12,690 bases of DNA from Thermoanaerobaculia bacterium (GCA_044226625.1 JBGAGQ010000112.1:1-12690); one strand, 5' to 3'; shown: positions 1,026 through 12,690, counted from the first letter of the stretch. Notes: generated by a model not told the origin, from the sequence alone. Made by a program: numbers and translations.

Positions 1026-1673
1026 CTAGGGGGAGTGGCCCAGCCACCATCCTACGGGACCTACGGGGCCCATGGGGCCCATCGGATCGAGCGGAGCGAG
1101 GGGATCGGTGGTTCGGCCTGACCGATCGTCTCCTTCGGTCGCCTCGTTCACGTGCCAAGGCCCCGGGATTGCGTCGCGCTGCCAATACAGCGAGCCGGCG
1201 GGCAGATCGAGGGTCTCCCCGCCCCCGGCACGGAGGCGCAATGCGGTCTTCGCGAACAGACCCCGCGCGGCGAAACCCTCGTCCCAGGGGTCTCCCAATC
1301 GTGCCGCGAGCATCGTCCCGCGGCCCGCGGCGACCATCAAATTCAAATCGCGCGTCGGCCCGTCGTGCAGGTGGCAGTCGGGCGCGTCGCCGCCGTCGAA
1401 CCGCAGCGGCTCGTCGAGCGGGCCGAGACTTCTCTCCTGAGCGCCGAAACGCAGGCGCACACCACGGCCTTCGACCACAGCGAACCAACGGGTCACTCCT
1501 GGGAACGAGGAAAACGGACCGTCGGCCTCGATCTCCGCGACGCTGATCCGGAGACTCCAGGGGCCCGGATGATCCCGGTCGGGCCAGACGAGGAGCTCGC
1601 GGGTCCGCCCTCCGCCGTTCTTCCAAGGGGTGGGCGCGACGTCGTCGAGTCGCACGATGCGCGGGCGGTCCAT
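1026..1673 (-). CDS. hutD: HutD/Ves family protein (cupin-like)
   Basis: PWKNGGGRTREL...WSLRISVAEIEADGPFSSFPGVTRWFAVVEGRG...GPTRDLNLM is the HutD/Ves signature. Start moved from 1859 to ATG 1673 (MDRPRIVRL) because the upstream extension overlaps the divergent protease gene. 215 aa. Confidence 0.9.
   Translation of the reverse strand: MDRPRIVRLDDVAPTPWKNGGGRTRELLVWPDRDHPGPWSLRISVAEIEADGPFSSFPGVTRWFAVVEGRGVRLRFGAQERSLGPLDEPLRFDGGDAPDCHLHDGPTRDLNLMVAAGRGTMLAARLGDPWDEGFAARGLFAKTALRLRAGGGETLDLPAGSLYWQRDAIPGPWHVNEATEGDDRSGRTTDPLAPLDPMGPMGPVGPVGWWLGHSP
1051..1104. repeat. Six degenerate 9-bp tandem units inside the 3' end of hutD
   Basis: cctacggga/cctacgggg/cccatgggg/cccatcgga/tcgagcgga/gcgagggga, encoding a Pro-periodic tract DPLAPLDPMGPMGPVGPVG on the minus strand. 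Confidence 0.7.
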
Positions 1674-1773
1674 GGCGCGGATCCTAACGGCAACTTGCGC
1701 AAGGGCGTTCCGTACAGTCAGGATCGGTCGATTCCGCGCCACCCCTTCGCCATCTCCTCGGAAAGGACTCCCC

Positions 1774-4700
1774 GTGAAGAAACGCCTGCTGCCATTGCTC
1801 GCCCTTCTCGCCCTCTCCGTCGCTCCCGCGCGCGGAGCGGAAGACACGGGGTCCCGCATGCTTCATACGCCGGACGTCTCGCGCGACCGGATCGTTTTCG
1901 TCTATGCCGGGGACGTGTGGATCGTCCCCCGGGCAGCGGAAGACACGGGGTCCCGCATGCTTCATACGCCGGACGTCTCGCGCGACCGGATCGTTTTCGT
2001 CTATGCCGGGGACGTGTGGATCGTCCCCCGGGCCGGCGGCGAAGCACGGCGGCTGACCTCTCACCCGGGCCAGGAGCTCTTCCCCAAGCTCTCGCCGGAC
2101 GGCCGGCAGGTCGCCTTCTCGGGCGAATACACGGGCACCCGCCAGGTCTACGTCGTCTCGGCCGACGGCGGCGAGCCGAAGCAGCTCACGTTCCGCAACG
2201 ACATCGGCGAGCTGCCCCCGCGCGGCGGCTACGACAACGTGATCCTCGACTGGACGCCCGACGGCAAGAAGATCGTCTTCCGCGCGAACCGCGTCCCGTA
2301 CGACGAGCGGATCGGCCGCCCTTACGCGGTGCCCGCCGCGGGCGGCATGGAAGAGCCGCTGCGCATGCCCGAAGGGGGCGCCGGAACCCTTTCGCCCGAC
2401 GGCAACCGCTTCGTCTATACCCCGATCGGCCGCGAGTTCCGCAACTGGAAGCGCCACCGCGGCGGCCGGACCCCCGACCTCTGGATCTACGACTTCGGCA
2501 AGGACAGCGCCGAGCAGATCACCAAGACGCCCGAAAACGAGATGTGGCCGGTCTGGCTGGGCGACCAGATCTTCTACGCCTCGGACCGGGACCACACGCT
2601 CAATCTCTTCTCCTACGACGTGCGGACGAAGGCGACGGCCAAGGTCACGAACGGCGACTGGGACGCCATGTGGCTGAGCGGCGGCCCCGATGCGGTGGTC
2701 TACGAAGCGGGGGGTTGGATCTGGCTCTACGATCCACAGCGCGGCGAGACGAACAAAGTGCCGATCCACGTCTTGGGCGACTTCCCCGAGGCGGTTCCGT
2801 CCTTCGTCGACCTGTCGCGTAGCGTCGAGGCCGCCGTGCCCTCCCCCACGGGGAAGCGCGCCCTGCTCACCGCGAACGGCGAGCTGTTCACGGTCCCGGC
2901 CGAGCACGGGGAGATCAAGAATCTCACCACCTCCCCGGGCGTCCGCGAGATGTCGGCCAGCTGGTCGCCCGACGGCAAGTGGATCTCCTACCTTTCCGAC
3001 CGGAGCGGCGAGTACGAGATCTGGGTGCGCCCGAGCGACGGCTCCGGCCCGGAGCGGCGGGTGACGACCGACGGCGACGTCTGGCGCTTCGCGCCGGTCT
3101 GGTCGCCCGATTCGAAGAAGCTCGCCTTCGGCGACAAGAAGGCGCGCGTGCGGATCGCGGACGTCGATTCCGGCAAGGTGCGAGATGCCGATTCCTCGCG
3201 CTACGGCACGATCGAGCTCTACCGCTTCTCGCCCGACAGCCGGTTCCTCGCTTACACCAAGAACGGCGCGAACCACCTCTCCTCGATCTGGATCTACTCG
3301 CTCGACGAGGGCAAGGCGCGCCAGCTCACCGATAGCGGCGCGAACGACTTCGAGCCGGTGTGGGACCCGAACGGGCGCTACCTCTACTTCCTCTCGAATC
3401 GTGACTTCACCCTCACCTTCAGCGGCTTCGAGAGCCAGTATCTCTACACCGACCCGACCCGCGTCTACGTGGGCGAGCTGTCGAAGGACGCCCCGGCGCT
3501 CTTCCCGCCGCAGAGCGACGATGAGCCGACGGGTGCCGCCGCCAAGGCGACCGATCCGGCGAAAGTCGCCAAGGTATCGATCGATTTCGACGGCTTTGAC
3601 GGCCGAGTGCGGGCGATCCCGGGAGACCCCGGCGCCTACCGGTCGCTCTCGGCGTCGGCCGACGCGCTCTTCTACCTGAAGCAGATCAACCCGGCGACCA
3701 CGCAGTTGTTCCGTTTCGGCCTCGGAGCGCGGGAAGAAAAATCGGTCCTCGACGAGGTCGGCGACTACACGCTCTCCGGCGACGGCAAGAAGATCCTCTA
3801 CCAGCACGGGCTGGATTTCGGGTTCGTCGACGCGCTGCCCGACCAGAAGCCGACCGGGCGCCTCGACCTTGCGAGCCTCCAGATGCGGAGCGTGCCGCGC
3901 GAGGAGTGGGCGCAGATGTACCGCGACGCCGGCCGCCTGGTGCGCGACTGGTTCTACGACCCGAACCTCCACGGCCGGGACTGGACGGCTATCCTCAAGC
4001 GCTACGGCGAGCTGATGCCTTACGTCGCGAGCCGCAACGACCTCGACTGGATCCTGAACGAGATCCTGGCGGAGCTGGGCGCCGGCCACACCTACCTCGA
4101 GCGCCGTCCGCACTGGTCGCCGGTCGAGCGGAAAGCGGGCGGGCTGCTCGGCGCCGAGATCGTCACCGACCCGTCCGGAACCTTCCGCATCGCCCAAATC
4201 TTCCCGGGCGAAAACTGGCACGAGGACTTCCGGTCGCCGCTCACCGAGCAAGGGGTGAACGCCCAGGAAGGCGAGCTGATCCTGGCCGTCGACGGCGTCT
4301 CGACCAAGGGAGTCGACAACTTCTACCGCCTGCTGGAAAACAAGGGCGGGCGTACGGTGTCGTTGCTGCTGAACAAGAAGCCGACGACCGACGGCGCCCA
4401 CGAGGAAAAAGTCTCGACGATCACCAGCGAGCAGAACCTCCGCTACCTCGCCTGGGTCGAGGCGAGCCGGCGCCGGGTGGAGAAAGCCTCGAACGGGCGG
4501 ATCGGCTACATCCACCTGCCGAACACCGCCTTCGAAGGAAACCGCGAGCTGTTCAAGCACTTCTACCCGCAGGTCGACAAGGACGCGCTGATCCTCGACG
4601 ACCGCTACAACGGCGGCGGCTTCATTCCAGACTCGATGATCGCCCTGCTCACCCGGCCGCTCCTCTCCTACTGGGTCCGCCGCGGCGAAGAGCCGAACAC

Positions 4701-5100
4701 GACGCCCGATTTCGTCAACCCGGGACCCAAGGCCTGCCTGATCAACTGGAGCGCCGGCTCAGGCGGCGACGCCTTCCCCTACTACTTCCGCGAGCTCGGC
4801 CTCGGACCGCTGATCGGCACCCGCACCTGGGGTGGTCTGATCGGCCTCTCCGGCAACCCGCCGCTCATGGACGGCGGAGCGGTTCTCGTACCCCAGTTTC
4901 GATTCATGGATCCCAGCGGCCAATGGGCGGTCGAAAACGAAGGGGTGAGCCCCGACATCGAAGTTATCGATCGCCCTGATCTGATCGCCAAAGGTCAGGA
5001 TCCGACGCTCGAAAAGGCGATCGAAGTCTTGCTTGCCGAGCTGGCGAAGAACCCGCGGAAGAAGGTTGTCGTGCCGCCGATTTTGCCGCCTCGGGAGTAG
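1774..5100 (+). CDS. Tricorn protease homolog (peptidase S41; beta-propeller repeats, PDZ, catalytic domains), secreted
   Basis: GTG 1774 after SD AAAGGA; signal peptide MKKRLLPLLALLALSVAPARG; many PD40-like (W/L)SPDG(K/R) repeats; ELGAGHTY (catalytic His region), PDZ segment GELILAVDG, GYIHLPN, DDRYNGGG, SAGSGGDAFPYYFR (catalytic Ser), LIGTRTWGGLIG, VENEGVSPDIEV. 1108 aa as assembled. Confidence 0.95.
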   Translation: MKKRLLPLLALLALSVAPARGAEDTGSRMLHTPDVSRDRIVFVYAGDVWIVPRAAEDTGSRMLHTPDVSRDRIVFVYAGDVWIVPRAGGEARRLTSHPGQELFPKLSPDGRQVAFSGEYTGTRQVYVVSADGGEPKQLTFRNDIGELPPRGGYDNVILDWTPDGKKIVFRANRVPYDERIGRPYAVPAAGGMEEPLRMPEGGAGTLSPDGNRFVYTPIGREFRNWKRHRGGRTPDLWIYDFGKDSAEQITKTPENEMWPVWLGDQIFYASDRDHTLNLFSYDVRTKATAKVTNGDWDAMWLSGGPDAVVYEAGGWIWLYDPQRGETNKVPIHVLGDFPEAVPSFVDLSRSVEAAVPSPTGKRALLTANGELFTVPAEHGEIKNLTTSPGVREMSASWSPDGKWISYLSDRSGEYEIWVRPSDGSGPERRVTTDGDVWRFAPVWSPDSKKLAFGDKKARVRIADVDSGKVRDADSSRYGTIELYRFSPDSRFLAYTKNGANHLSSIWIYSLDEGKARQLTDSGANDFEPVWDPNGRYLYFLSNRDFTLTFSGFESQYLYTDPTRVYVGELSKDAPALFPPQSDDEPTGAAAKATDPAKVAKVSIDFDGFDGRVRAIPGDPGAYRSLSASADALFYLKQINPATTQLFRFGLGAREEKSVLDEVGDYTLSGDGKKILYQHGLDFGFVDALPDQKPTGRLDLASLQMRSVPREEWAQMYRDAGRLVRDWFYDPNLHGRDWTAILKRYGELMPYVASRNDLDWILNEILAELGAGHTYLERRPHWSPVERKAGGLLGAEIVTDPSGTFRIAQIFPGENWHEDFRSPLTEQGVNAQEGELILAVDGVSTKGVDNFYRLLENKGGRTVSLLLNKKPTTDGAHEEKVSTITSEQNLRYLAWVEASRRRVEKASNGRIGYIHLPNTAFEGNRELFKHFYPQVDKDALILDDRYNGGGFIPDSMIALLTRPLLSYWVRRGEEPNTTPDFVNPGPKACLINWSAGSGGDAFPYYFRELGLGPLIGTRTWGGLIGLSGNPPLMDGGAVLVPQFRFMDPSGQWAVENEGVSPDIEVIDRPDLIAKGQDPTLEKAIEVLLAELAKNPRKKVVVPPILPPRE
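1836..2033. repeat. Perfect 99-bp tandem duplication (1836-1934 = 1935-2033), in frame
   Basis: Identical copies; duplicates AEDTGSRMLHTPDVSRDRIVFVYAGDVWIVPRA. Identity stops exactly at both edges. Confidence 0.95.
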
Positions 5101-5561: not shown

Positions 5562-7085
5562 GTGGAGCTGGCGCGTCTGGTCAGGATCACCCGCGATGGC
5601 TCAGCAGTGAACGGCGGCACCGGCTATCTGCTCGCCACGCACCTTGTTCTCACCGCGCGACACGTCGTCGAAGGCGCTGAACGGATCGAGGTTCGTTACA
5701 ACGGAGCCGATGGCAAGGAAGCGACGGCGGAACCGATCGAGCCGCCCTATTTCGGCGAAGGGGATCTCGATCTGGCGGTGCTTCGCGTGGCGACGGGCCT
5801 TGACCTTTCTGCGGTGCCTCTCGGTCCCGAGCGATTTATCGGTGATCGCCCTTGGCGTTCGAAGGGGTGGGCGCGCGCGGCCCGAGGGGTCGCGGCGGAG
5901 GAGGCGAGCCAGGCTGATCGGATGAGCGCGCTCGCCGGGTCCGCTTATGAATTCTCCGCGACGGCGACGACTTTCGAGCTGGGAGTCGACGACCCGCCGA
6001 CCGAGCTCGATTGGTGGAAGGGTGCATCCGGCGCTCCTGTGTTCATTGCCGACCGTTCCGGTGAAAGGCTGGTCGGCGTGATCGCACAGGGGGATCAGCC
6101 CTTCGACGGTCGGCGGCTGCGCGCCGTGCCGCTCGCGGCGGTCTGGGGCGATCGACGATTCCTTGCCGCGATCGACCACGACAAAGCGCAGGAAGAACGT
6201 CGCAAGCGACGGAAAGAGGAGCTGATCTCTGCTCTCGAAAACCGCCTCAGCCTGCACCACGAGGCCGCTTGGACGATCGCCAACGAGCATCCTCTTTGGC
6301 GAGAGGCGCTGGATCAGAAAGAGAGCAGCGGATACCTCGCCCTGGCGAAGGCCCTTTGCGAATCGCGCTCCTGGCGCGAAACGATCGAGCTGCTCGACCG
6401 TGCGCACCTTCGGATGGTCGAGGAAGAAGAACGTGATGCTTCCAGGACCTCGCATGAACGCTCGCACTCCGAGGAGATCGTCCGGATCTTGGAGCGCGTC
6501 CTGCCGGAGGTGTATTACTCGACGGTGAGCCAAGCGGCACCGAAAGGGGAGGGGAGCTTCATCGAGCTTCCGGTCGAGACCGCGACGCTCGCCGAGATCG
6601 CGATGGCCGCGATCGACGGGCGGTGTCTAGCTTTGGAAGAGGTCCGCAAGAAGAAGGTCTATCCGAAGAGCACTTTTCAGATCGACCCGAAGCACTCGAA
6701 GGAGCGGAAAGGGTTCGACTTCACGGGGGCTGCTGCGCTCGGCGGCTGGCTGGAGGTCATCGCGCGATGGATCGGCCTCGATCCGGACGACATCGAGACA
6801 CTGCGCCACCCGAATCGCCTGGACGAGTTGGCGCGACGCATTGATAGTGAGATCGAAACCGACGTCCGGCGCGGAGAGCCTCGACGCTATTTCGTCTATC
6901 CGAGCGACTTCGCCGAACGAAACCAGCTATTCCTTCGACAGCTCGGAAGCGCGCTTCACTCCCTCCGATTCGTCCAACTGACCGGCAAGAGCCTCACCGA
7001 CGAGCGCGACGCCTGCGAGCCGCTGCGCGCAATCCTCTTCCGTTCCTATGAGCACCGCAACAAGAAAGGCAGGCGCCGATCGTGA
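5562..7085 (+). CDS. Trypsin-like serine protease fused to an uncharacterised ~300-aa C-terminal domain (third component of a MoxR/vWA ternary system)
   Basis: Intact triad motifs GTGYLL...LTARHVV (His), DLDLAVL (Asp), WKGASGAPVF (Ser); no signal peptide; starts 3 nt after the Trypco2 stop; its TGA overlaps the MoxR GTG (GTGA). Confidence 0.85.
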   Translation: MELARLVRITRDGSAVNGGTGYLLATHLVLTARHVVEGAERIEVRYNGADGKEATAEPIEPPYFGEGDLDLAVLRVATGLDLSAVPLGPERFIGDRPWRSKGWARAARGVAAEEASQADRMSALAGSAYEFSATATTFELGVDDPPTELDWWKGASGAPVFIADRSGERLVGVIAQGDQPFDGRRLRAVPLAAVWGDRRFLAAIDHDKAQEERRKRRKEELISALENRLSLHHEAAWTIANEHPLWREALDQKESSGYLALAKALCESRSWRETIELLDRAHLRMVEEEERDASRTSHERSHSEEIVRILERVLPEVYYSTVSQAAPKGEGSFIELPVETATLAEIAMAAIDGRCLALEEVRKKKVYPKSTFQIDPKHSKERKGFDFTGAAALGGWLEVIARWIGLDPDDIETLRHPNRLDELARRIDSEIETDVRRGEPRRYFVYPSDFAERNQLFLRQLGSALHSLRFVQLTGKSLTDERDACEPLRAILFRSYEHRNKKGRRRS

Positions 7086-8053
7086 GATTCCTCGACGTCC
7101 GACCGGGTGAAGCCCGGACGTTGCCGGCCCATGGGGCGCTTTCGGAGGCCGTCCACGTCTTCGACGAGCGGATGATTGCCGCGATCGACGCGGCGCTCGC
7201 CGCCGACCGACCCCTTCTCGTGCGCGGCGAGCCGGGTACGGGAAAGAGCCAGCTCGCGCGCGCCGCGGCGGTCGCGCTTGGGCGCGTGTTCCTCCCGTTC
7301 ACGGTCGATGCCCGAACCGAATCGCGCGACCTCCTCTACTCGGTCGACACCGTCGCTCGGCTCGCTGAATCGCAGATCGTCGGCTTTTTGAAGAACTCGC
7401 AACCCGCGCTCGACGTCCGGGCGCACCTCGCCGAGAAGAATTTCACCTCGCCGGGCCCTCTCTGGTGGGTTTTCGACTGGCAGGGCGCGACCGATCAGGC
7501 GACCGTGGCGAGATCCGCGACGCCCTGGTCGCCGCAGGGCTGGACACCCGAGAACGGCGCGGTCCTCCTTCTCGACGAGATCGACAAAGCGGATCCGGCG
7601 GTTCCGAACGGCCTGCTCGAAGCGCTCGGCCTCGGCCAGTTCCCGACCCCCTGGGGCGATACGGTTTCGAGCCAGTCCGCGGTGCCTCCTCTCGTCGTAA
7701 TCACGACGAACGAAGAGCGGTCGTTGCCCGACGCGTTCGTCCGCCGATGCCTCGTCCTCCAACTCGGCTGGCCGATTCGACGCGACGAGCTGATCGCCGC
7801 CCTGATCGCGCGAGGCCGAGCCCACTTTCCCGCCGCCGCCGAGAATCTCTTGGCGACCGCCGCCGGAATGGTCGCCGACGATCGGGAGGCGATTCTCGAT
7901 CGGCACCTGAACCCGCCCGGCGGAGCCGAATATCTCGATCTTCTTCGCGCTGTGATCCGGCGCCACCCCGACGATCCCGAGGCCCAGAAGGCAGGGCTCG
8001 ATCGCATCCGCTCCTTCGCGCTGCGCAAGCATCCGGAGGAGAGGGAGGGTTGA
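7082..8053 (+). CDS. MoxR-family AAA+ ATPase
   Basis: RPLLVRGEPGTGKS (Walker A), VLLLDEIDKAD (Walker B), PNGLLE, VVITTNEERSLPDAFVRRC (sensor 1/Arg finger). DLLYSVDTVARL and GPLWWVFDW are typical of conflict-system MoxRs. 323 aa. Confidence 0.93.
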   Translation: MRFLDVRPGEARTLPAHGALSEAVHVFDERMIAAIDAALAADRPLLVRGEPGTGKSQLARAAAVALGRVFLPFTVDARTESRDLLYSVDTVARLAESQIVGFLKNSQPALDVRAHLAEKNFTSPGPLWWVFDWQGATDQATVARSATPWSPQGWTPENGAVLLLDEIDKADPAVPNGLLEALGLGQFPTPWGDTVSSQSAVPPLVVITTNEERSLPDAFVRRCLVLQLGWPIRRDELIAALIARGRAHFPAAAENLLATAAGMVADDREAILDRHLNPPGGAEYLDLLRAVIRRHPDDPEAQKAGLDRIRSFALRKHPEEREG

Positions 8054-10773
8054 GCCTCTCGATGGGGCCCCGGCCCGCGGCCTCCGCGGCAAGCCGCGCC
8101 GACCTCTATCGGGCGCTCGTCGAAGGAGGCGAGAAGGCGCTCGCCGCCATGGCGGAGCTGCTCGGCTATGAGGAACGCCCCTCGCTCGGAACCGGCACGC
8201 CCCGCCAGCAGGAGCCTCGCGAGCCCGAGCCGACCGCCGAAAAGCCGGCACCGGAAAAGCCGGTAGCTCGCCCGCCCACAACCTTCTGGTGTTTGGAGGA
8301 GGTCGAGCACCTCACGCCCGCTCCGGCTCCGGCGCGCCCCGCCGTCGCACCGATCGGATTGGAAGGGATCGGCCTCCTCGAAGGCCGCCCGCCGCGGACA
8401 TCACCGATCGTTTCCGATGCGCGACTTTGGGCGGCACTCCGCCGCCGCCTCGGCTCGACCTCCAAGAGCCGCCAGGTCGACGTCCGGGCGCTCGCGGATT
8501 CATGGAGCCGCGGCAGAATCCGGCGCGAGATCCCATATCGAGCGCTGCCTGCCTGGACCTCTCGTGTGCTGGTCCTCGTCGACGGAAGCGCGCACCTCGG
8601 CCCTGTGCGCGACGACCAGCGGCGGTTGATCTCCGAGCTGAAGCTGCGGCTCGGAAAATCCGCGGTGCGGTCGGTGCGATTCACCGAGGGAATGGAGCGG
8701 CCCTGGAAAGACGGGCGAGAGCGCCGAAGCGAGCCGCCGTTCGAAGCCCGCACTCCAGCGATCGCCTTGAGTGACCTCGGCTTTGTCGGGGGTTTGGACC
8801 GACGTGCCTTCTGGGTGAGCGTAGCGCTCTCCGCCGAACGGGCGGACGCGCCGCTCGCTGCGCTGGTGCCGGTCGGGGCCGATCGCTGGGAGAGGAGCGC
8901 TGGTCATGCGTGGAACGCGCTTCCTTGGGAGCGGCCCGAACGTGCGCCGGAGCCGGGCCCTGCACGCGCCGAAGACCAGCGACGAGAGCGCGCCGAGCGC
9001 CTGCTTAGCCTCCTCGCATTCGCCTCGCGCATTGAGCCCGGGCTCCTTCGCTCGGCGCGCCGCCTGCTTTCGCCGCAGGAAGCGGACCAGGGCACCGAGC
9101 TCGACGCGTGGAATCTCGCCGGTGTGGCCGGAGGTTTCGCTTCGGCGGCCGTGGTTTTCTCAGCCGAGCTGCGACACAAGCTGGAAGAGCGTTTTCGGGC
9201 GGAAGATCCGGACCGAAAGGGAAAGCTATTGGCCCTGCAACGCTCCTGGCGTCGGGGCCAACCGAAAGAGATCTGGCTCGACGAGGTGCTCGCTCTCGAC
9301 GCGGCCGGAGACCTTCCGGCCGGGGTCTTGCGGAACGAAGAGGTCGAAGCGGCCCGTGCTCTCTGGGAGCGGATCGGCGAAACCCTGGAGAGCGGGGCCG
9401 CATCCCAGGTGGTCGCCGAAGGGCTGAGCCGTTATGTCCGTGAAGCGGTCGGCGAGCACCTTCCGAAAACGGCCTGGGACGACGAAAGTTGGTCCCACCT
9501 TCTTTCCCGCGCCTGGAAGCACGCCTGGAAAGGCCCCGGCCCCCCGCCCCTTCCCCCCGGGGTCGGCTCCGGCGTGCTCGACCTGCCCCGCGGCGAGGCG
9601 CGCCGTGGCGCCTTGTGGCAGGTGGCTGGCGATCTCGTCTGGAGCCCTTCGGGCGCGTCCCTTCCTGCGGGGAGCCCGCTCGCGGCGATGGAGTCCTCGG
9701 ACGGACTGGTCACCCTCGCCGGGGAATGCTCTGGCTGGTCAACTCCCCGACCGCTCGGCGAAGGGCAGGCGCTGCCGCGACGCACCGGGGAACTCCTCGT
9801 CCTCACCGATCGCACGCGTGCGACGCTCCGCCGGATCGTGCGCCCGGCTTGGGCGCAGTCGGTCGGCAGAGACCGCCACGGCCTCTGGGCCACTCTTGCG
9901 GTGGGCGAGGCTCGGCAAAAGATGCGGTGGATTGCGCCTGGGCGGTTCTGGATGGGCTCGCCAGAAGACGAGCCGGGAAGGTATTACTGGGAGCAGCTCC
10001 TTCATCTGGTGGAGATCAAGAACGGCTTTTGGCTCGGCGAGACCCCGTGTACTCAGGCACTTTGGCTTGCGGTGATGGGGGGCGGAAACCCGAGCGAATT
10101 TCAGACACCTGACCGCCCGGTCGAAAGGGTGAGCTGGGACGACTGTCAGGAGTTCCTCGGAACGCTCCGGCAAGACAAGGCCGGAGGCGAAATCTGGCGG
10201 CTTCCGACCGAGCAGGAGTGGGAGTACGCCTGCCGAGCGGGGACGGAGACGGCGACCTATGAGGGGTCGATCGAGATCAAAGGGGAACACAACGCACCGG
10301 TCCTCGGCCCCATCGCCTGGTACGGTGGAAACAGCGGCGTGGACGATCTGGAGAACGGTTGGGATTCGAGCGACTGGACTGAGAAGGAGGAGAAACACAC
10401 CCGAGCCGCGACTCACCCCGTCGCCTTGAAACGCGCGAACCCCTGGGGTCTCTACGACATGCTCGGCAACGTCTGGGAGTGGTGCCACGACTCGGTCGAT
10501 CCTGAAATGACACCAAATCCAGAGGGCCCGTACCGGGTGTTTCGTGGCGGCTCGTGGTACGAGCTCGCCCGGAACGTTCGCGCGGCCTACCGGTACTGGT
10601 ACCTCCCGAGCGACCGCGACGACAGCTTCGGCTTCCGCCTTGCCCGAGGTCAGGAATCTGCGCTCCGGCAAGGGGCGGAGCCCAGGGGCGCGGAGCGCCC
10701 CACCCGGGGCCTGCCGAAGTGCGGGACGCGCCGGTCAGGCCCAGGGCCGCGGCCGGAGGCCGCGGCCGAATGA
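8050..10773 (+). CDS. vWA-like domain protein with C-terminal FGE-sulfatase (SUMF1-like, C-type lectin fold) domain; putative DGR target 1
   Basis: Likely start TTG 8050 (TTGA overlap with the MoxR stop, after GGAGGAGAGGGAGGG) or ATG 8062; the extension to 7465 overlaps MoxR. vWA-like core VDVRALADSWSRG...VLVLVDGSAHLGPVRDD...IALSDLG. FGE domain MRWIAPGRFWMGSP, TPCTQALW, PVERVSWDDC, RLPTEQEWEYACRAG, NPWGLYDMLGNVWEWC, RVFRGGSW...FGFRLAR. About 907 aa. Confidence 0.88.
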   Translation: MSLSMGPRPAASAASRADLYRALVEGGEKALAAMAELLGYEERPSLGTGTPRQQEPREPEPTAEKPAPEKPVARPPTTFWCLEEVEHLTPAPAPARPAVAPIGLEGIGLLEGRPPRTSPIVSDARLWAALRRRLGSTSKSRQVDVRALADSWSRGRIRREIPYRALPAWTSRVLVLVDGSAHLGPVRDDQRRLISELKLRLGKSAVRSVRFTEGMERPWKDGRERRSEPPFEARTPAIALSDLGFVGGLDRRAFWVSVALSAERADAPLAALVPVGADRWERSAGHAWNALPWERPERAPEPGPARAEDQRRERAERLLSLLAFASRIEPGLLRSARRLLSPQEADQGTELDAWNLAGVAGGFASAAVVFSAELRHKLEERFRAEDPDRKGKLLALQRSWRRGQPKEIWLDEVLALDAAGDLPAGVLRNEEVEAARALWERIGETLESGAASQVVAEGLSRYVREAVGEHLPKTAWDDESWSHLLSRAWKHAWKGPGPPPLPPGVGSGVLDLPRGEARRGALWQVAGDLVWSPSGASLPAGSPLAAMESSDGLVTLAGECSGWSTPRPLGEGQALPRRTGELLVLTDRTRATLRRIVRPAWAQSVGRDRHGLWATLAVGEARQKMRWIAPGRFWMGSPEDEPGRYYWEQLLHLVEIKNGFWLGETPCTQALWLAVMGGGNPSEFQTPDRPVERVSWDDCQEFLGTLRQDKAGGEIWRLPTEQEWEYACRAGTETATYEGSIEIKGEHNAPVLGPIAWYGGNSGVDDLENGWDSSDWTEKEEKHTRAATHPVALKRANPWGLYDMLGNVWEWCHDSVDPEMTPNPEGPYRVFRGGSWYELARNVRAAYRYWYLPSDRDDSFGFRLARGQESALRQGAEPRGAERPTRGLPKCGTRRSGPGPRPEAAAE
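10525..10668 (+). other. Putative DGR variable region VR1 (10525-10629) plus invariant IMH-like block (10630-10668)
   Basis: Aligns without gaps to 11756-11899; mismatches concentrate at positions 1-2 of NNC codons and mostly involve A; followed by 39 identical nt GGCTTCCGCCTTGCCCGAGGTCAGGAATCTGCGCTCCGG. Confidence 0.8.
10673..10767 (+). promoter_or_regulatory. Array of four GGA-triloop hairpins downstream of VR1 (candidate DGR homing cis-element)
   Basis: GGGC-GGA-GCCC (10673-83), GGGGCGC-GGA-GCGCCCC (10685-701), GTGCG-GGA-CGCGC (10719-31, one T-G pair), GGCCGCGGCC-GGA-GGCCGCGGCC (10745-67). Confidence 0.7.
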
Positions 10774-10865
10774 AATTGGCATTTTTCGCGGTGCCGGCGG
10801 AAGGCGGAATGGAGGTCGCCGCCGACGTGAACCGATTCCTTGGCGCACACCGCGTCGTCGCGATC
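10770..10865 (+). pseudogene. Truncated 5' fragment resembling the DGR-associated HRDC accessory protein
   Basis: ATGA overlap with the upstream stop. MKLAFFAVPAEGGMEVAADVNRFLGAHRVVAI resembles the N-terminus (FF.IP...LN.FL..HRV) of HRDC proteins encoded beside DGR RTs, from memory. Similarity ends at CTAG 10866; the frame then runs through a palindromic repeat to TGA 11042 with no HRDC domain. Confidence 0.6.
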
Positions 10866-10900
10866 CTAGGGGTCCCTCAGAAGAAAGGGTCGTGCGAGGT

Positions 10901-11012
10901 GGCTTTTCCTGGGCTCGCCAGGCTCCAGCCTGGCATCGATCGCTGCATCGAGCTGGCTGTGTGCTCGAAGCCAAAAGCGCCACGCTGGAGCGTGGCGAGC
11001 CCAGGAAAGGCC
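10901..11012. repeat. Inverted pair of REP-like palindromes (REP doublet)
   Basis: 10901-10934 and 10979-11012 are 34-bp inverted repeats with 3 mismatches; each arm has an internal hairpin (GCCAGGCT-CC-AGCCTGGC; GCCACGCT-GG-AGCGTGGC); 44-nt spacer. Confidence 0.75.
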
Positions 11013-11038
11013 CCCGATCTTTCCGCGGAGCGCCTTTC

Positions 11039-11902
11039 GTGACCTTCCGCTCCCACCCGCTCGAAGACGGTTGCCCTCCTGCCTGGGCCTCCGGCTGGGG
11101 GGAGGACGAATTCGGGATCTTCGCCGAGTTTTCTGTCGGGGAAGCGTCGCAGCGGATGCGTTGGATCGAGGCGGGGGATTTCATGATGGGCTCGCCAAAG
11201 GACAAACCGAGGCGGTGGGGTGACGAAGGACCGCAACACCGCGAAGCGATCGAAGAAGGGTTTTGGCTCGCGGACACCCCCTGTACCCAAGCGATCTGGG
11301 AGGTGGTGACGGGTTCGAACCCGAGCCGCTTCAAGACGCCCGATCGGCCGGTCGAGCAGGTGAGCTGGGAGGACTGCCAGGAATTCTGCCGCAAGCTCGC
11401 CGAGAGGATCGGCGGCCCGGGGTGGCGTCTCCCTTCCGAGGCGGAGTGGGAATACGCCTGCCGGGCGGGGGCCGAAACCGCAACCTACGCGGGGCCGATC
11501 GAGCTGAAAGGCGAAGCCAACGCCCCGGTGCTCGGCCCGATCGCCTGGTATGGCGGGAACTCAGGGGATGGCTACGATCTCGAAGAGTTCGAGGACTCCT
11601 CCGATTGGCCCGAGAAAGAAATCGCACACATGCGGGCCGGGACGCGGCGGGTGAAGACCAAGGAACCGAACGCCTGGGGCCTCTACGACACGCTCGGCAA
11701 CGTCTGGGAGTGGTGCGAGGATTTCTGGTCTGCCGGGTATGACGCCGAACGCAAGGGCCCGTCCCGGGTGATCCGTGGCGGCTCATGGAGCACGCTCGCC
11801 CGGCTCGTTCGCGCGGCCTACCGGGGCTGGTACCACCCGGGCGTCCGCTTCGACGACCTCGGCTTCCGCCTTGCCCGAGGTCAGGAATCTGCGCTCCGGT
11901 AG
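11039..11902 (+). CDS. Stand-alone FGE-sulfatase (C-type lectin fold) protein; putative DGR target 2
   Basis: GTG 11039 with GGAG 8 nt upstream; MTFRSHPLEDGCPPAWASGWGEDEFGIFAEF...MRWIEAGDFMMGSP...RLPSEAEWEYACRAG...NAWGLYDTLGNVWEWC...RVIRGGSW...LGFRLARGQESALR*. 287 aa; paralog of the C-terminal part of 8050-10773. Confidence 0.9.
   Translation: MTFRSHPLEDGCPPAWASGWGEDEFGIFAEFSVGEASQRMRWIEAGDFMMGSPKDKPRRWGDEGPQHREAIEEGFWLADTPCTQAIWEVVTGSNPSRFKTPDRPVEQVSWEDCQEFCRKLAERIGGPGWRLPSEAEWEYACRAGAETATYAGPIELKGEANAPVLGPIAWYGGNSGDGYDLEEFEDSSDWPEKEIAHMRAGTRRVKTKEPNAWGLYDTLGNVWEWCEDFWSAGYDAERKGPSRVIRGGSWSTLARLVRAAYRGWYHPGVRFDDLGFRLARGQESALR
11756..11899 (+). other. Putative DGR variable region VR2 (11756-11860) plus invariant IMH-like block (11861-11899)
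   Basis: Second copy of 10525-10668 at offset 1231 nt; same mismatch pattern as VR1. Confidence 0.8.
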
Positions 11903-11903
11903 G

Positions 11904-11998
11904 GGGCGGAGCCCAAGGGTGCGGAGCGCCCCACCGGGGCCGGCAAGGCGCGGGACGCGCCGGCCTGGCCCCGGATCGCGGCCGGAGGCCGCGATCCG
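11904..11998 (+). promoter_or_regulatory. Array of four GGA-triloop hairpins downstream of VR2
   Basis: GGGC-GGA-GCCC (11904-14), GGGTGC-GGA-GCGCCC (11917-31, one T-G pair), GGCGCG-GGA-CGCGCC (11947-61), CGGATCGCGGCC-GGA-GGCCGCGATCCG (11972-98). Confidence 0.7.
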
Positions 11999-12181
11999 AA
12001 TTTGAGAATCCGGCCGGCCGGGACCTCGATCGCAACCGCCGGGACCTTGGTCCGAGCCGCCCGGACTGCAGTCGCGACGACCGGGACAGGGTCCGGAAGC
12101 CGGCGGCCGGGGAGGAACTCCATGCCCGTTGGGAAGCGCTCCCCAAAACTCCGCAAGCGCACTTTTCTCAGGGCGGAACCT

Positions 12182-12249
12182 TCGCCTTTTCTCCTTCCCA
12201 GAAGGAGAACTTTGGGCTGAGTTCTCCTTCTCAGAAGGAGAAAGGGCGA
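12182..12249. repeat. Nested palindrome: 30-bp inverted repeat whose arms are themselves hairpins
   Basis: Arms 12182-12211 and 12220-12249 (3 mismatches, 8-nt loop); internal TTCTCCTTC-CCA-GAAGGAGAA (12189-209) and TTCTCCTTC-TCA-GAAGGAGAA (12222-242). Confidence 0.75.
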
Positions 12250-12267
12250 CACTCGCCGACGTCCGGC

Positions 12268-12357
12268 ATGGGCCGGGCCTTCAGCCCTTGCCGCCTCGTC
12301 GGCGCCTCGATTCCTGGGGCTTCACCCCAGGCTATTATGGGACGCGCCTTTGGCGCT
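12268..12357. repeat. REP/BIME-like composite palindromic unit
   Basis: Degenerate direct repeats ATGGGCCGGGCCTTCAGCCCT (12268-88) and ATGGGACGCGCCTTTGGCGCT (12337-57), each a small hairpin, flank CCTGGGG-CTTCA-CCCCAGG (12313-31). Confidence 0.6.
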
Positions 12358-12650
12358 GGCCGCCTCAGATCCTCTCTTGACGTACTAAGGTTGCGCCCCT
12401 TTTTCACCGCTCCGCAGCAGAAGCCCGGTGAGAAGTTCGGGCTAGCGTCGATTGGCGCCAGAGGAACATTTCGGCCGGCTGGGTTCGAGAGCGCCGCGAC
12501 CTGTGGCGCTCGGGGTCGTAACACGGAAGATAAGCGCCAAAGGCGCGATCGATAATAGATGCTATGGAGGGTCGAGGCCCCCGGGTGAGTGAGGTTGTGG
12601 GCCGGCTGGATAATTCTCTGGAACCACCATCGCCAAACGGAGGCAACCAG

Positions 12651-12690
12651 ATGAGCCAGACGACCCACAAAACAGAGTCTAAAGCGGCCG
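12651..12690 (+). CDS. 5' end of an unidentified gene running off the window (MSQTTHKTESKAA...)
   Basis: Strong SD GGAGG at 12639-12643, 7 nt before ATG 12651; frame open to the window end. Too short to assign. Confidence 0.5.
   Translation, partial: MSQTTHKTESKAA

What the first reader, a model, noticed from the sequence alone, without database searches (positions are those of the whole stretch)
10525..11899. Two paralogous 3' ends show the adenine-mutagenesis signature of DGR variable regions
Seen: 10525-10629 vs 11756-11860 (35 codons, ungapped) differ at 20 nt. 18 are at codon positions 1-2, only one codon change is synonymous (TCG/TCA), 12 codons change amino acid, and 16 of 20 mismatches have an A in one copy despite A-poor DNA (TAC/AGC, GAG/ACG, AAC/CTC, TAC/GGC, CTC/CAC, GAC/GTC, GAC/TTC, AGC/GAC). 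Upstream the same paralogs diverge normally, with 5 synonymous changes in 15 codons at 10111-10155 vs 11342-11386. Proteins: YRVFRGGSWYELARNVRAAYRYWYLPSDRDDSFGFRLA vs SRVIRGGSWSTLARLVRAAYRGWYHPGVRFDDLGFRLA. Established: DGR RTs miscopy template adenines, typically in AAC codons. Inference: both regions were rewritten from one template repeat.
Basis: partly seen in the sequence, partly recalled or inferred. Interest (0 to 1): 0.9.

Follow-up and report, generated by a model that had tools for sequence, protein, structure and literature searches.

The report
Leftover targets of a decayed retroelement
Two neighbouring genes still carry the scrambled ends that a diversity-generating retroelement once wrote into them, but the reverse transcriptase and template that did the writing have been deleted from between them, a kind of leftover already described in other bacteria.

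Summary
In detail: 20 differences in 105 nt, 18 at codon positions 1-2, 16 with an A in one copy. This departs from the upstream domain of the same paralogs (p = 0.0008, 0.009).

Both segments are C-terminal variable regions (VRs) of FGE-sulfatase/C-type-lectin proteins. Same-order genomes carry intact, syntenic DGR cassettes: trypsin-like peptidase, long A-like target (VR), HRDC accessory, RT, TR, short B-like target (VR). Fifteen of the 20 differences fall in the 24 columns where at least 2 of 3 of those TRs have adenine (p = 2e-8). Both window copies have the VR-type 3' junction.

The writing machinery is missing. Only 32 codons of the HRDC accessory survive between the two genes (10770-10865), followed by a repeat element and then gene B. 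No RT, TR or intact accessory was found in the 6.6-Mb, 97.9%-complete assembly, nor a cognate RT or TR in four same-genus genomes. A core missed by the assembly is not excluded.

Verdict: a DGR remnant with orphan VRs, as reported in Treponema denticola (PMC4891356). New member of a known kind; moderate-low interest.

The parts
5562..7085 (+). Trypsin-like peptidase gene (507 aa), the first conserved gene of the cassette
   Evidence: Pfam Trypsin_2 4e-11-range match. Homologues precede the A-like target in intact cassette L128 and in the decayed ones L217, L218, L220.
7465..10773 (+). Gene A: long target protein (ORF 1102 aa) with a C-terminal FGE-sulfatase / C-type-lectin domain. Homology to relatives outside the genus starts near residue 206.
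   Evidence: PF03781 1.6e-40 at residues 819-1061. Syntenic A-like genes occur in L128, L129, L130, L138.
10525..10648 (+).
   Evidence: Related TRs align to 10525/10529-10654 at 70-75% identity.
10649..10767 (+). VR-type 3' flank (GTCAGG..TCTGCGCTC) and an array of GC-rich hairpins with C-GGA-G triloops (10673-10683, 10685-10701, about 10719-10731, 10745-10767).
   Evidence: DNA fold z = -4.7; 3 perfect-stem GGA hairpins in 130 nt; genome background mean 0.017, P(>=3) = 5e-5. The same arrays follow VRs in intact cassettes L128 and L129.
10770..10865 (+). Stub of the HRDC accessory gene: the first 32 codons only. The ATG overlaps gene A's stop.
   Evidence: tblastn 47% identity to residues 1-32 of the 158-aa L128 accessory, E 7e-6 against the locus and 0.004 against the genome. 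It sits in the same position, right after the identical hairpin CGCGGCCGGAGGCCGCG. No HRDC part is present.
10866..11038 (.). Scar filler. It is a multi-copy palindromic MITE-like repeat (arms 10898-10934 / 10979-11015) occupying the place of the accessory C-terminus, RT and TR.
   Evidence: 37-nt arms, 89% complementary. (copies at C58, C13, C60, C17 of the same genome). (not present in the TR-to-B spacers of intact cassettes).
11039..11902 (+). Gene B: short target protein (287 aa), FGE-sulfatase domain only
   Evidence: PF03781 1.9e-44. Orthologues at 81% identity in L016 and L017. B-like genes follow the TR in intact cassettes.
11756..11879 (+). Variable region B
11880..11998 (+). VR-type 3' flank and GGA-triloop hairpin array after VR B
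   Evidence: z = -3.5; 3 hairpins

Best explanation
The window holds the remains of an HRDC-type diversity-generating retroelement (DGR). In the intact form, an RT with an HRDC accessory protein copies a template repeat (TR) lying between two target genes. It misreads the TR adenines and writes the cDNA over the 3' end of each FGE-sulfatase/C-type-lectin target. This keeps the scaffold bases identical and randomises the AAC-type codons that line the ligand-binding face. Genes A and B are those two targets, and their last ~124 coding nucleotides are the two variable regions. The segment between them that should carry the accessory C-terminus, the RT and the TR (about 1.6 kb in relatives) has been lost. 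What remains is a 32-codon accessory stub plus a MITE-like repeat. The two VRs are therefore most likely frozen orphan records of past mutagenic homing. Shown: the mismatch pattern, its coincidence with the TR adenines of homologous cassettes, the synteny, the stub, and the absence of RT, TR and accessory from the assembly. Inferred: that both VRs were written from one locus-specific TR, that the core was deleted rather than never present, and that diversification has stopped.
For: (1) Pattern: (see observation check).

(2) Intact homologous cassettes exist in same-order genomes. L128: TR 5768-5901, 2 VRs, RT. L129: TR 5620-5750, 2 VRs, RT. L130: TR 6704-6835, 3 VRs, RT. TR-to-VR mismatches are 12-17 at TR adenines and 1-2 elsewhere.

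(3) 15 of the 20 window mismatches lie in the 24 of 105 columns where at least 2 of 3 of those TRs have A (Fisher p = 2.2e-8). In 12 same-genus VR copies those columns are near-random in composition (A93 T78 G65 C52), against 29 A in 972 in the other columns. Column entropy is 1.54 vs 0.51.

(4) TRs read GAGC at the 3' end of the repeat. All VRs, and both window copies, read GAGGTC(AGG).

(5) The gene order trypsin-like, A(VR), HRDC accessory, RT, TR, B(VR) is seen in L128. The part from A(VR) to B(VR) is also seen in L129 and L138, where no trypsin-like match was listed. The window has the same order minus the core. The accessory is PF00570 HRDC.

(6) The stub is at 10770-10865.

(7) In the own genome there is no PF00078 hit, no tblastn hit to three DGR RTs below E 0.1, no third VR/TR-like copy and no intact accessory. 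The one PF05635 gene lies inside the ATP synthase operon.

(8) Core-less A-B junctions sit mid-contig in same-genus genomes: L017, L016 and L136, on contigs of 43, 172 and 189 kb. Other decay states occur on 80-938-kb contigs in other families: L217, L218, L221 and L220.

(9) The window's A-B pair differs at 5 of 81 inferred non-A columns. In ten VR-VR pairs of intact DGRs the figure is 0-2 of 90-106.

(10) There is a precedent for leftover targets without RT or TR: PMC4891356 (passages read).
Against: The cognate TR was never seen. Adenine positions are inferred from TRs that are only 66-75% identical to the window's VRs.

The genome is a 133-contig MAG whose smallest contig is 2022 nt. A ~1.7-kb core flanked by repeats could have been dropped. 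The window's contig ends in a multi-copy IS110-family gene.

The two Logan contigs that cover the scar overlap by only 26 nt, inside the repeat arm. The join across the MITE therefore rests on the assembler.

The VR scaffolds are still 94% identical and their hairpin arrays are intact. This fits a very recent loss but fits continuing homing from a core elsewhere equally well.

The stub match is short (32 aa; E 0.004 genome-wide).
Confidence: 0.8

Rival explanations
1. The DGR is still active. An intact accessory-RT-TR core exists in this organism but is missing from the MAG (on an unbinned short contig, beyond the IS110 at the contig end, or on a mobile element). It diversifies both VRs in trans.
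For: The VR scaffold is 76/81 identical and the 3' flank and hairpins are intact. Remote targets are known for DGRs (PMC5758913, passages). The MAG is fragmented, with an apparent ~2-kb contig floor. Locus-specific shared states (4 vs 0) show that homing went on after the species split.
Against: There is no RT, TR or HRDC accessory in 6.6 Mb at 97.9% completeness. The in-situ core is visibly truncated. Four same-genus genomes lack a cognate core; the one DGR found there (G050, L127) has a TR only 60-69% like these VRs. Non-A differences (5/81) exceed those of intact systems (0-2 per ~100).
Confidence: 0.14
2. No retroelement was ever involved. Gene conversion keeps the two 3' ends alike and diversifying selection changes the ligand-binding codons.
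For: The 140 nt downstream of the VRs, which homing does not rewrite, are also 88% identical. Some conversion or a shared constraint is therefore at work.
Against: Conversion would also erase the variable columns, yet 15 of 24 differ against 5 of 81 elsewhere. In 7 codons both of the first two positions differ. The variable columns coincide with the adenines of real TRs in syntenic cassettes (p = 2e-8). An accessory stub lies between the genes.
Confidence: 0.03
3. One of the two copies is itself the template (a coding TR) for the other.
For: Only two copies exist in the genome.
Against: Neither copy is adenine-rich at the variable columns: 16 of the 20 mismatches have an A in one copy or the other, but these are split between copies A and B rather than held by one. 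Both carry the VR-type GAGGTC junction, not the TR-type. Both end intact FGE domains.
Confidence: 0.01

Closest known systems
Treponema denticola TvpA-type DGR (HRDC accessory, FGE-sulfatase/C-type-lectin target) and its 'leftover' targets in isolates lacking RT and TR (PMC4891356; PMC5758913 'architecture C', target category b)
   Same: FGE-sulfatase target with a C-terminal VR. HRDC accessory overlapping the RT in the intact relatives. Genomes that keep VR-bearing targets after losing RT and TR, with VR differences at TR-adenine positions.
   Different: A different phylum (relatives are labelled Thermoanaerobaculia/Holophagales MAGs). The gene order is target-accessory-RT-TR-target, with a trypsin-like gene upstream in several cassettes. 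Here a physical scar (accessory stub plus repeat element) marks the loss. VRs are followed by arrays of GGA-triloop hairpins.
Bordetella phage BPP-1 DGR (mtd-avd-TR-brt), the prototype
   Same: Adenine-specific TR-to-VR mutagenesis into the C-terminus of a C-type-lectin fold. The directional 3' junction differs between TR and VR. GC-rich hairpin/cruciform downstream of the VR (PMC3240598, passages).
   Different: The accessory is Avd, not HRDC. The target is a phage tail fibre. There is a single hairpin with a 4-nt GRNA loop, rather than 3-4 hairpins with GGA triloops. BPP-1 is complete and active, whereas the window lacks RT, TR and accessory.
FGS(FGE-sulfatase)-DGR modules of prokaryotic conflict systems (Kaur et al. 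2020, PMC7159879)
   Same: FGE-type hypervariable domain at the C-terminus of a large multidomain protein, next to a trypsin-like peptidase gene.
   Different: No vWA, MoxR, STAND or other NTPase domain was detected in gene A or its neighbours by Pfam or NCBIfam. Membership of those systems is not shown.

Membership tests
Diversity-generating retroelement (complete cassette) | DGR-clade reverse transcriptase encoded in the genome | tested here: not met
   PF00078: 0 matches in G000. tblastn with three DGR RTs: best E 0.11. Order-wide protein search: G000 has 0 matches. Limit: a 133-contig MAG, 97.9% complete.
Diversity-generating retroelement (complete cassette) | Template repeat differing from the VR almost only at its adenines | tested here: not met
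   No third copy was found by BLAST with VRs or with related TRs. None of 13 VR-like copies in five same-genus genomes is TR-type.
Diversity-generating retroelement (complete cassette) | Accessory gene (Avd or HRDC) | tested here: not met
   Only codons 1-32 of the HRDC-type accessory remain. The lone PF05635 gene is unrelated by context.
Diversity-generating retroelement (complete cassette) | VR at the C-terminus of a C-type-lectin/FGE-sulfatase target, with variation at codon positions 1-2 of AAC-type codons | tested here: met
Diversity-generating retroelement (complete cassette) | VR-specific 3' junction (IMH-like) and GC-rich hairpin downstream | tested here: met
   GAGGTC in both copies against GAGC in TRs. 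Hairpins. Function in homing is not testable here.
Orphan / leftover DGR targets (as in T. denticola isolates lacking the core) | Target homologous and syntenic to targets of intact DGRs | tested here: met
   (L128, L129, L130, L138)
Orphan / leftover DGR targets (as in T. denticola isolates lacking the core) | VR variation concentrated at positions that are adenines in TRs of intact relatives | tested here: met
   15 of 20 mismatches in 24 of 105 columns, p = 2.2e-8
Orphan / leftover DGR targets (as in T. denticola isolates lacking the core) | RT and TR absent from the genome | tested here: inconclusive
   Not found in the assembly. The scar is visible. But the genome is a MAG and the contig join crosses a repeat.
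Orphan / leftover DGR targets (as in T. denticola isolates lacking the core) | No ongoing diversification | not testable with these tools
   Only Logan contigs were available, not raw reads. Contigs drop rare variants.

The most novel reading that the evidence does not exclude
The orphan VRs are not dead. In this HRDC-type DGR lineage, targets are marked by a conserved acceptor module: the GAGGTCAGG..TCTGCGCTC junction plus an array of 3-4 GC hairpins with invariant C-GGA-G triloops. This module is kept intact in core-less genomes because a core elsewhere (unassembled, on a mobile element, or acquired again from time to time) still rewrites them in trans. That would explain why each A-B pair keeps a locus-specific scaffold long after the species split, even though 19 of 24 sampled genomes with such VRs show no adjacent cognate RT.
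Probability: 0.15. Interest if true: 0.6.

Novelty: new member of a known kind. Interest (0 to 1): 0.35.

Why it matters
DGR surveys start from the RT, so they miss loci like this one. Here the targets, their acceptor sequences and a stub of the accessory gene survive while the engine is gone.

The window gives a dated, anatomically clear example of DGR decay. In a 151-genome sample of the same order, 24 genomes carry VRs of this sequence family, but only 5 have the cognate RT beside them (my reading of the tables). Several different partial deletions were seen. This suggests that hypermutation is switched off often, leaving 'frozen' binding proteins.

It also warns annotators that an adenine-mutagenesis signature is evidence of past activity, not present activity. 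None of this changes the known mechanism.

Tried and rejected
1. Search for the TR and RT in the own genome with VR DNA, related TRs, PF00078, three DGR RT proteins, the HRDC accessory and PF05635. Nothing was found except an unrelated four-helix-bundle gene in the ATP synthase operon.

2. RTs of same-genus genomes. Six loci (L092-L097) carry no VR-like repeat within ±1.5 kb. Their high RVT_1 scores and ~450-aa ORFs suggest group II introns, but I did not verify that.

3. The DGR of same-genus G050 (L127) as a possible trans donor. Its TR has a different scaffold, 60-69% identical.

4. Metagenome scan for closer relatives with an intact core. The best hit was only 65% identical, so no cognate TR was found.

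5. Laying Logan contigs of four runs on 10300-12690 at 80% likeness, to look for a TR-type copy or VR polymorphism. No extra contig at the genome's depth was seen on 11740-11819, and no A-rich variant was listed. But contigs cannot show absence, and 88 difference rows were not displayed. A minor variant contig (depth 4.7) skips 10708-11038.

6. Orthologue comparison as a clock. Four-fold sites between species are 52-70% identical, near saturation at 46%. Randomised adenine columns between orthologues therefore do not date the activity.

7. Whether the deletion is shared by G000 and G040. They share the repeat element and the first 8 codons of the stub, but differ in the left junction. This is unresolved. 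Locus-specific scaffold states favour independent, post-speciation losses.

8. The inverted repeat in the scar as a native post-TR structure. Rejected: it is absent from the TR-to-B spacers of intact cassettes and present at unrelated loci.

9. Acido-Lenti-1 as an IS110 bridge-RNA-like part. Only 2 of about 10 loci with the motif lie near an IS110 gene.


Full report
OBSERVATION

The window is a whole 12,690-nt contig (C128) of a 6.6-Mb, 133-contig MAG rated 97.9% complete and 5.5% contaminated. Segments 10525-10629 and 11756-11860 align without gaps and in frame. They differ at 20 of 105 positions: 9, 9 and 2 at codon positions 1, 2 and 3. Sixteen mismatches have an A in one copy, and 12 of the 13 changed codons change the amino acid.

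The 218 aligned codons upstream in the same two domains serve as an internal control, and the pattern departs from them. Positions 1-2 vs 3 are 18/2 against 120/111 (p = 0.0008). Mismatches with an A are 16/4 against 111/120 (p = 0.009). Synonymous vs non-synonymous codons are 1/12 against 59/85 (p = 0.018).

WHAT THE TWO SEGMENTS ARE

Both are the C-terminal ends of FGE-sulfatase (PF03781) domains. Gene A is 7465-10773 (ORF of 1102 aa). Gene B is 11039-11902 (287 aa). FGE-sulfatase/C-type-lectin C-termini are the largest class of DGR targets, 71 of 372 in the survey PMC5758913 (passages read).

The two genes are 68% identical over the 600 nt before the segment (401/593), and their four-fold sites are saturated (29/63 identical). 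Identity then jumps to 76/81 in the columns that I infer to be non-adenine. It stays at 123/139 for 140 nt after the segment.

INTACT RELATIVES

A DNA search of 151 genomes of the same order found VR-like sequence in many of them, often in clusters. In three such clusters I found complete DGRs:
- L128 (G103): TR 5768-5901, VRs 4741-4874 and 7560-7690.
- L129 (G091): TR 5620-5750, two VRs.
- L130 (G045): TR 6704-6835, three VRs.

Each has an RT scoring 54-64 bits on RVT_1. TR-to-VR mismatches are 11-17 at TR adenines and 1-2 elsewhere.

Aligned with the window, 15 of the window's 20 mismatches fall in the 24 columns where at least 2 of the 3 TRs have A, and 5 fall in the other 81 (Fisher p = 2.2e-8). 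In 12 VR copies from five same-genus genomes, those 24 columns are near-random in composition (A93 T78 G65 C52). The other 81 columns hold 29 A in 972 letters. Mean column entropy is 1.54 against 0.51.

At the 3' end of the repeat, every TR reads GAGC. Every VR, and both window copies, read GAGGTC followed by AGG..TCTGCGCTC. Both window copies are therefore acceptors, not templates.

SYNTENY AND THE SCAR

In L128 the order is: trypsin-like peptidase, long A-like protein ending in a VR, a ~160-aa accessory protein, RT, TR, short B-like protein ending in a VR. L129 and L138 (a metagenome contig) show the same order from the A-like gene onward, but no trypsin-like match was listed for them. L130 has an extra B-like target. 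L019 shows the target-accessory-RT-TR part. The accessory carries an HRDC domain (PF00570, E 1e-15 to 4e-20). This is the rarer DGR accessory, 14 of 372 in PMC5758913, typified by Treponema.

The window has the same order, with trypsin-like at 5562-7085, A and B, but only 410 nt between VR A and gene B. An ATG overlapping A's stop opens a reading frame whose first 32 codons match the accessory N-terminus. The match is 47% identical to L128, with E 7e-6 against the locus and 0.004 against the whole genome. It directly follows a hairpin, CGCGGCCGGAGGCCGCG, that is identical in L128. Homology stops at 10865.

Positions 10866-11038 hold a palindromic repeat with 37-nt arms. It has other copies in the genome at C58, C13, C60 and C17, and it is not found between TR and B in intact cassettes. 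The accessory C-terminus, the RT and the TR (about 1.6 kb in L128) are absent.

ABSENCE FROM THE GENOME, AND ITS LIMITS

The assembly has:
- no PF00078 match;
- no tblastn hit better than E 0.11 to three DGR RTs;
- no third VR/TR-like copy with VR or TR queries;
- no intact accessory.

Its single PF05635 gene lies between ATP synthase genes.

The limits are real. The smallest contig is 2022 nt, so a short core contig could have been filtered out. The contig ends in the first 13 codons of an IS110-family transposase that has a full copy on C81. In Logan contigs of the best-matching run, one contig covers 10639-10930 and another 10905-11888, both without differences. They overlap by only 26 nt, inside the repeat arm. 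So the truncation of the accessory is directly supported, but the join across the repeat is not independently supported.

Core-less A-B junctions that do not depend on this repeat occur mid-contig in same-genus genomes: L016 and L136, on contigs of 172 and 189 kb. L017 (43 kb) shares the repeat and keeps 8 stub codons.

None of the 13 VR-like copies in the five genomes of the genus is TR-type. The only DGR-type RT in the genus (G050, L127) has its own TR and VRs with a different scaffold.

HOW LONG AGO

In non-adenine columns, four sites show the state shared by the window's A and B against a different state shared by G129's A and B. No site shows the orthology pattern. Between the two A-B loci of G129 the count is 11 to 1. 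Each A-B pair therefore tracked its own template after loci and species had diverged, which argues for separate, later losses of the core.

The window's pair differs at 5 of 81 inferred non-adenine columns. Two of these involve an A and may be adenines in the unknown cognate TR. Ten VR-VR pairs of intact DGRs differ at 0-2 of 90-106 such positions. This is a small excess, as expected if some point mutations have accumulated since the last homing.

Orthologue comparisons cannot date the event, because silent sites between the species are close to saturation.

A WIDER PATTERN

By my reading of the tables, 24 of the 151 sampled genomes (G000 included) have a hit covering the VR at E <= 1e-8. One search scored at most 5 candidates per genome. 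Only 5 of the 24 (G103, G091, G045, G049, G035) have an RT at least 50% identical to the L128 RT next to those hits.

I inspected five other clusters:
- G005 (L217): trypsin-like, A, B, B, a 78-residue accessory fragment, B. No RT or TR.
- G015 (L218): two accessory fragments. No RT or TR.
- G037 (L221): A, B, B only.
- G068 (L220): a full accessory, only the last 55 RT codons, then a TR and one VR.
- G034 (L219): a TR-type copy and a partial RT match.

Among 155 more distant homologue loci from genome and metagenome collections, 21 show a DGR-like RT and/or an adenine-biased repeat pair within the DNA held (14 with RT, 15 with repeat pair).

THE ACCEPTOR HAIRPINS

Each window VR is followed, within 130 nt, by three perfect-stem hairpins with a GGA triloop closed by C-G. 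The genome background is a mean of 0.017 per 130 nt, with P(>=3) = 5e-5. The regions fold better than shuffles as DNA (z = -4.7 and -3.5).

Intact cassettes show 4, 3, 3, 3, 1, 0 and 0 such hairpins after their seven VRs. Stem sequences differ while the CGGAG core is constant.

In BPP-1, a single GC-rich hairpin with a 4-nt GRNA loop lying 4-34 bp after the VR is needed for homing. Stem structure and loop sequence both matter (PMC3240598, passages). The arrays here look like a lineage-specific version of that element. Their function is not tested.

COMPARISON AND VERDICT

The intact relatives are ordinary members of the HRDC-type, FGE-target class of DGRs. The window fails the membership test for a complete DGR, because RT, TR and accessory are not met. 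It matches what Nimkulrat et al. described in T. denticola isolates: target genes with VRs differing at TR-adenine positions in genomes without RT or TR, read as leftovers of core loss (PMC4891356, passages).

No NTPase, vWA or MoxR domains were detected in or near gene A. A link to the conflict systems of PMC7159879 (passages) is therefore only a resemblance.

The element is best described as a decayed DGR with two orphan variable regions. It is a new member of a known kind. Confidence is 0.8 for the remnant reading and about 0.14 for a hidden or trans-acting core.

I did not see supplementary tables of the cited papers. They may list comparable remnants.

Noticed in passing
window 12313-12357 (+); also L017 11737-11781: [quoted passage not shown] In this genome BLAST finds 18 hits at about 10 loci, mostly as convergent pairs 200-450 nt apart. 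In the window it is one arm of an inverted repeat (12332-12357 / 12533-12558). Only 2 loci lie near an IS110 gene. It looks like a small dispersed palindromic element.
   Followed up: partly
window 12651-12690 (+): The first 13 codons of an IS110-family transposase. The full 382-aa copy is at C81:218728-219873, with PF01548 + PF02371. The last 160 nt of the contig are 97.5% identical to C81, which explains why the contig ends here.
   Followed up: yes
window 10891-11015: MITE-like palindrome (37-nt arms) filling the deletion scar. It has copies on C58, C13, C60 and C17, and sits at the same place in the orthologous locus of a same-genus genome (L017 9845-9947).
   Followed up: partly
window 12182-12249: 30-nt inverted repeat made of two short hairpins (TCTCCTTCCCAGAAGGAGA-like). 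Similar sequence occurs in L016 10842-10901 and L017 3955-4009. Function unknown.
   Followed up: no
window 10673-10767 and 11904-11998; L128, L129: Arrays of 3-4 GC hairpins with an invariant C-GGA-G triloop after VRs of this DGR lineage. Stems vary and loops are constant. GGA loops are also the classic CsrA/Rsm binding motif (recalled, not tested).
   Followed up: partly
window 1630-5100 (+): 1156-aa Tricorn-like protease (PD40 beta-propeller, Tricorn C1, PDZ, peptidase S41) just upstream of the trypsin-like gene. It is not part of the conserved cassette in the relatives examined.
   Followed up: no
G000:C14:6121-6429: A 23S_rRNA_IVP/four-helix-bundle gene (PF05635, 86.5 bits) inserted between ATP synthase genes and flanked by GAATGGCGAAT-type short repeats.
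   Followed up: no
L220 (G068:C23:12000-22000): A different decay state of the same cassette. The full HRDC accessory, TR and one VR are retained, but the RT is reduced to its last 55 codons and the A-like gene to a fragment.
   Followed up: partly
G045:C102:7449-8660; G049:C20:549576-550772; G049:C12:43585-44790: Cognate DGR RT matches contain 1-2 in-frame stop codons. I did not check whether these lie in the accessory/RT overlap or mark pseudogenes.
   Followed up: no
L019 10001-10790: In an otherwise intact DGR (accessory, RT, and a TR with 20 of 21 mismatches at adenines), the target gene's match to gene B is split into two frames just upstream of its VR. This is a possible frameshift or an assembly error.
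   Followed up: no
L016 8072-9770: In one same-genus genome, 1.7 kb lies between VR A and gene B. It begins with a second B-like N-terminus (8072-8135 is 73% identical to 9769-9832) and has no accessory or RT similarity. Content not analysed.
   Followed up: no
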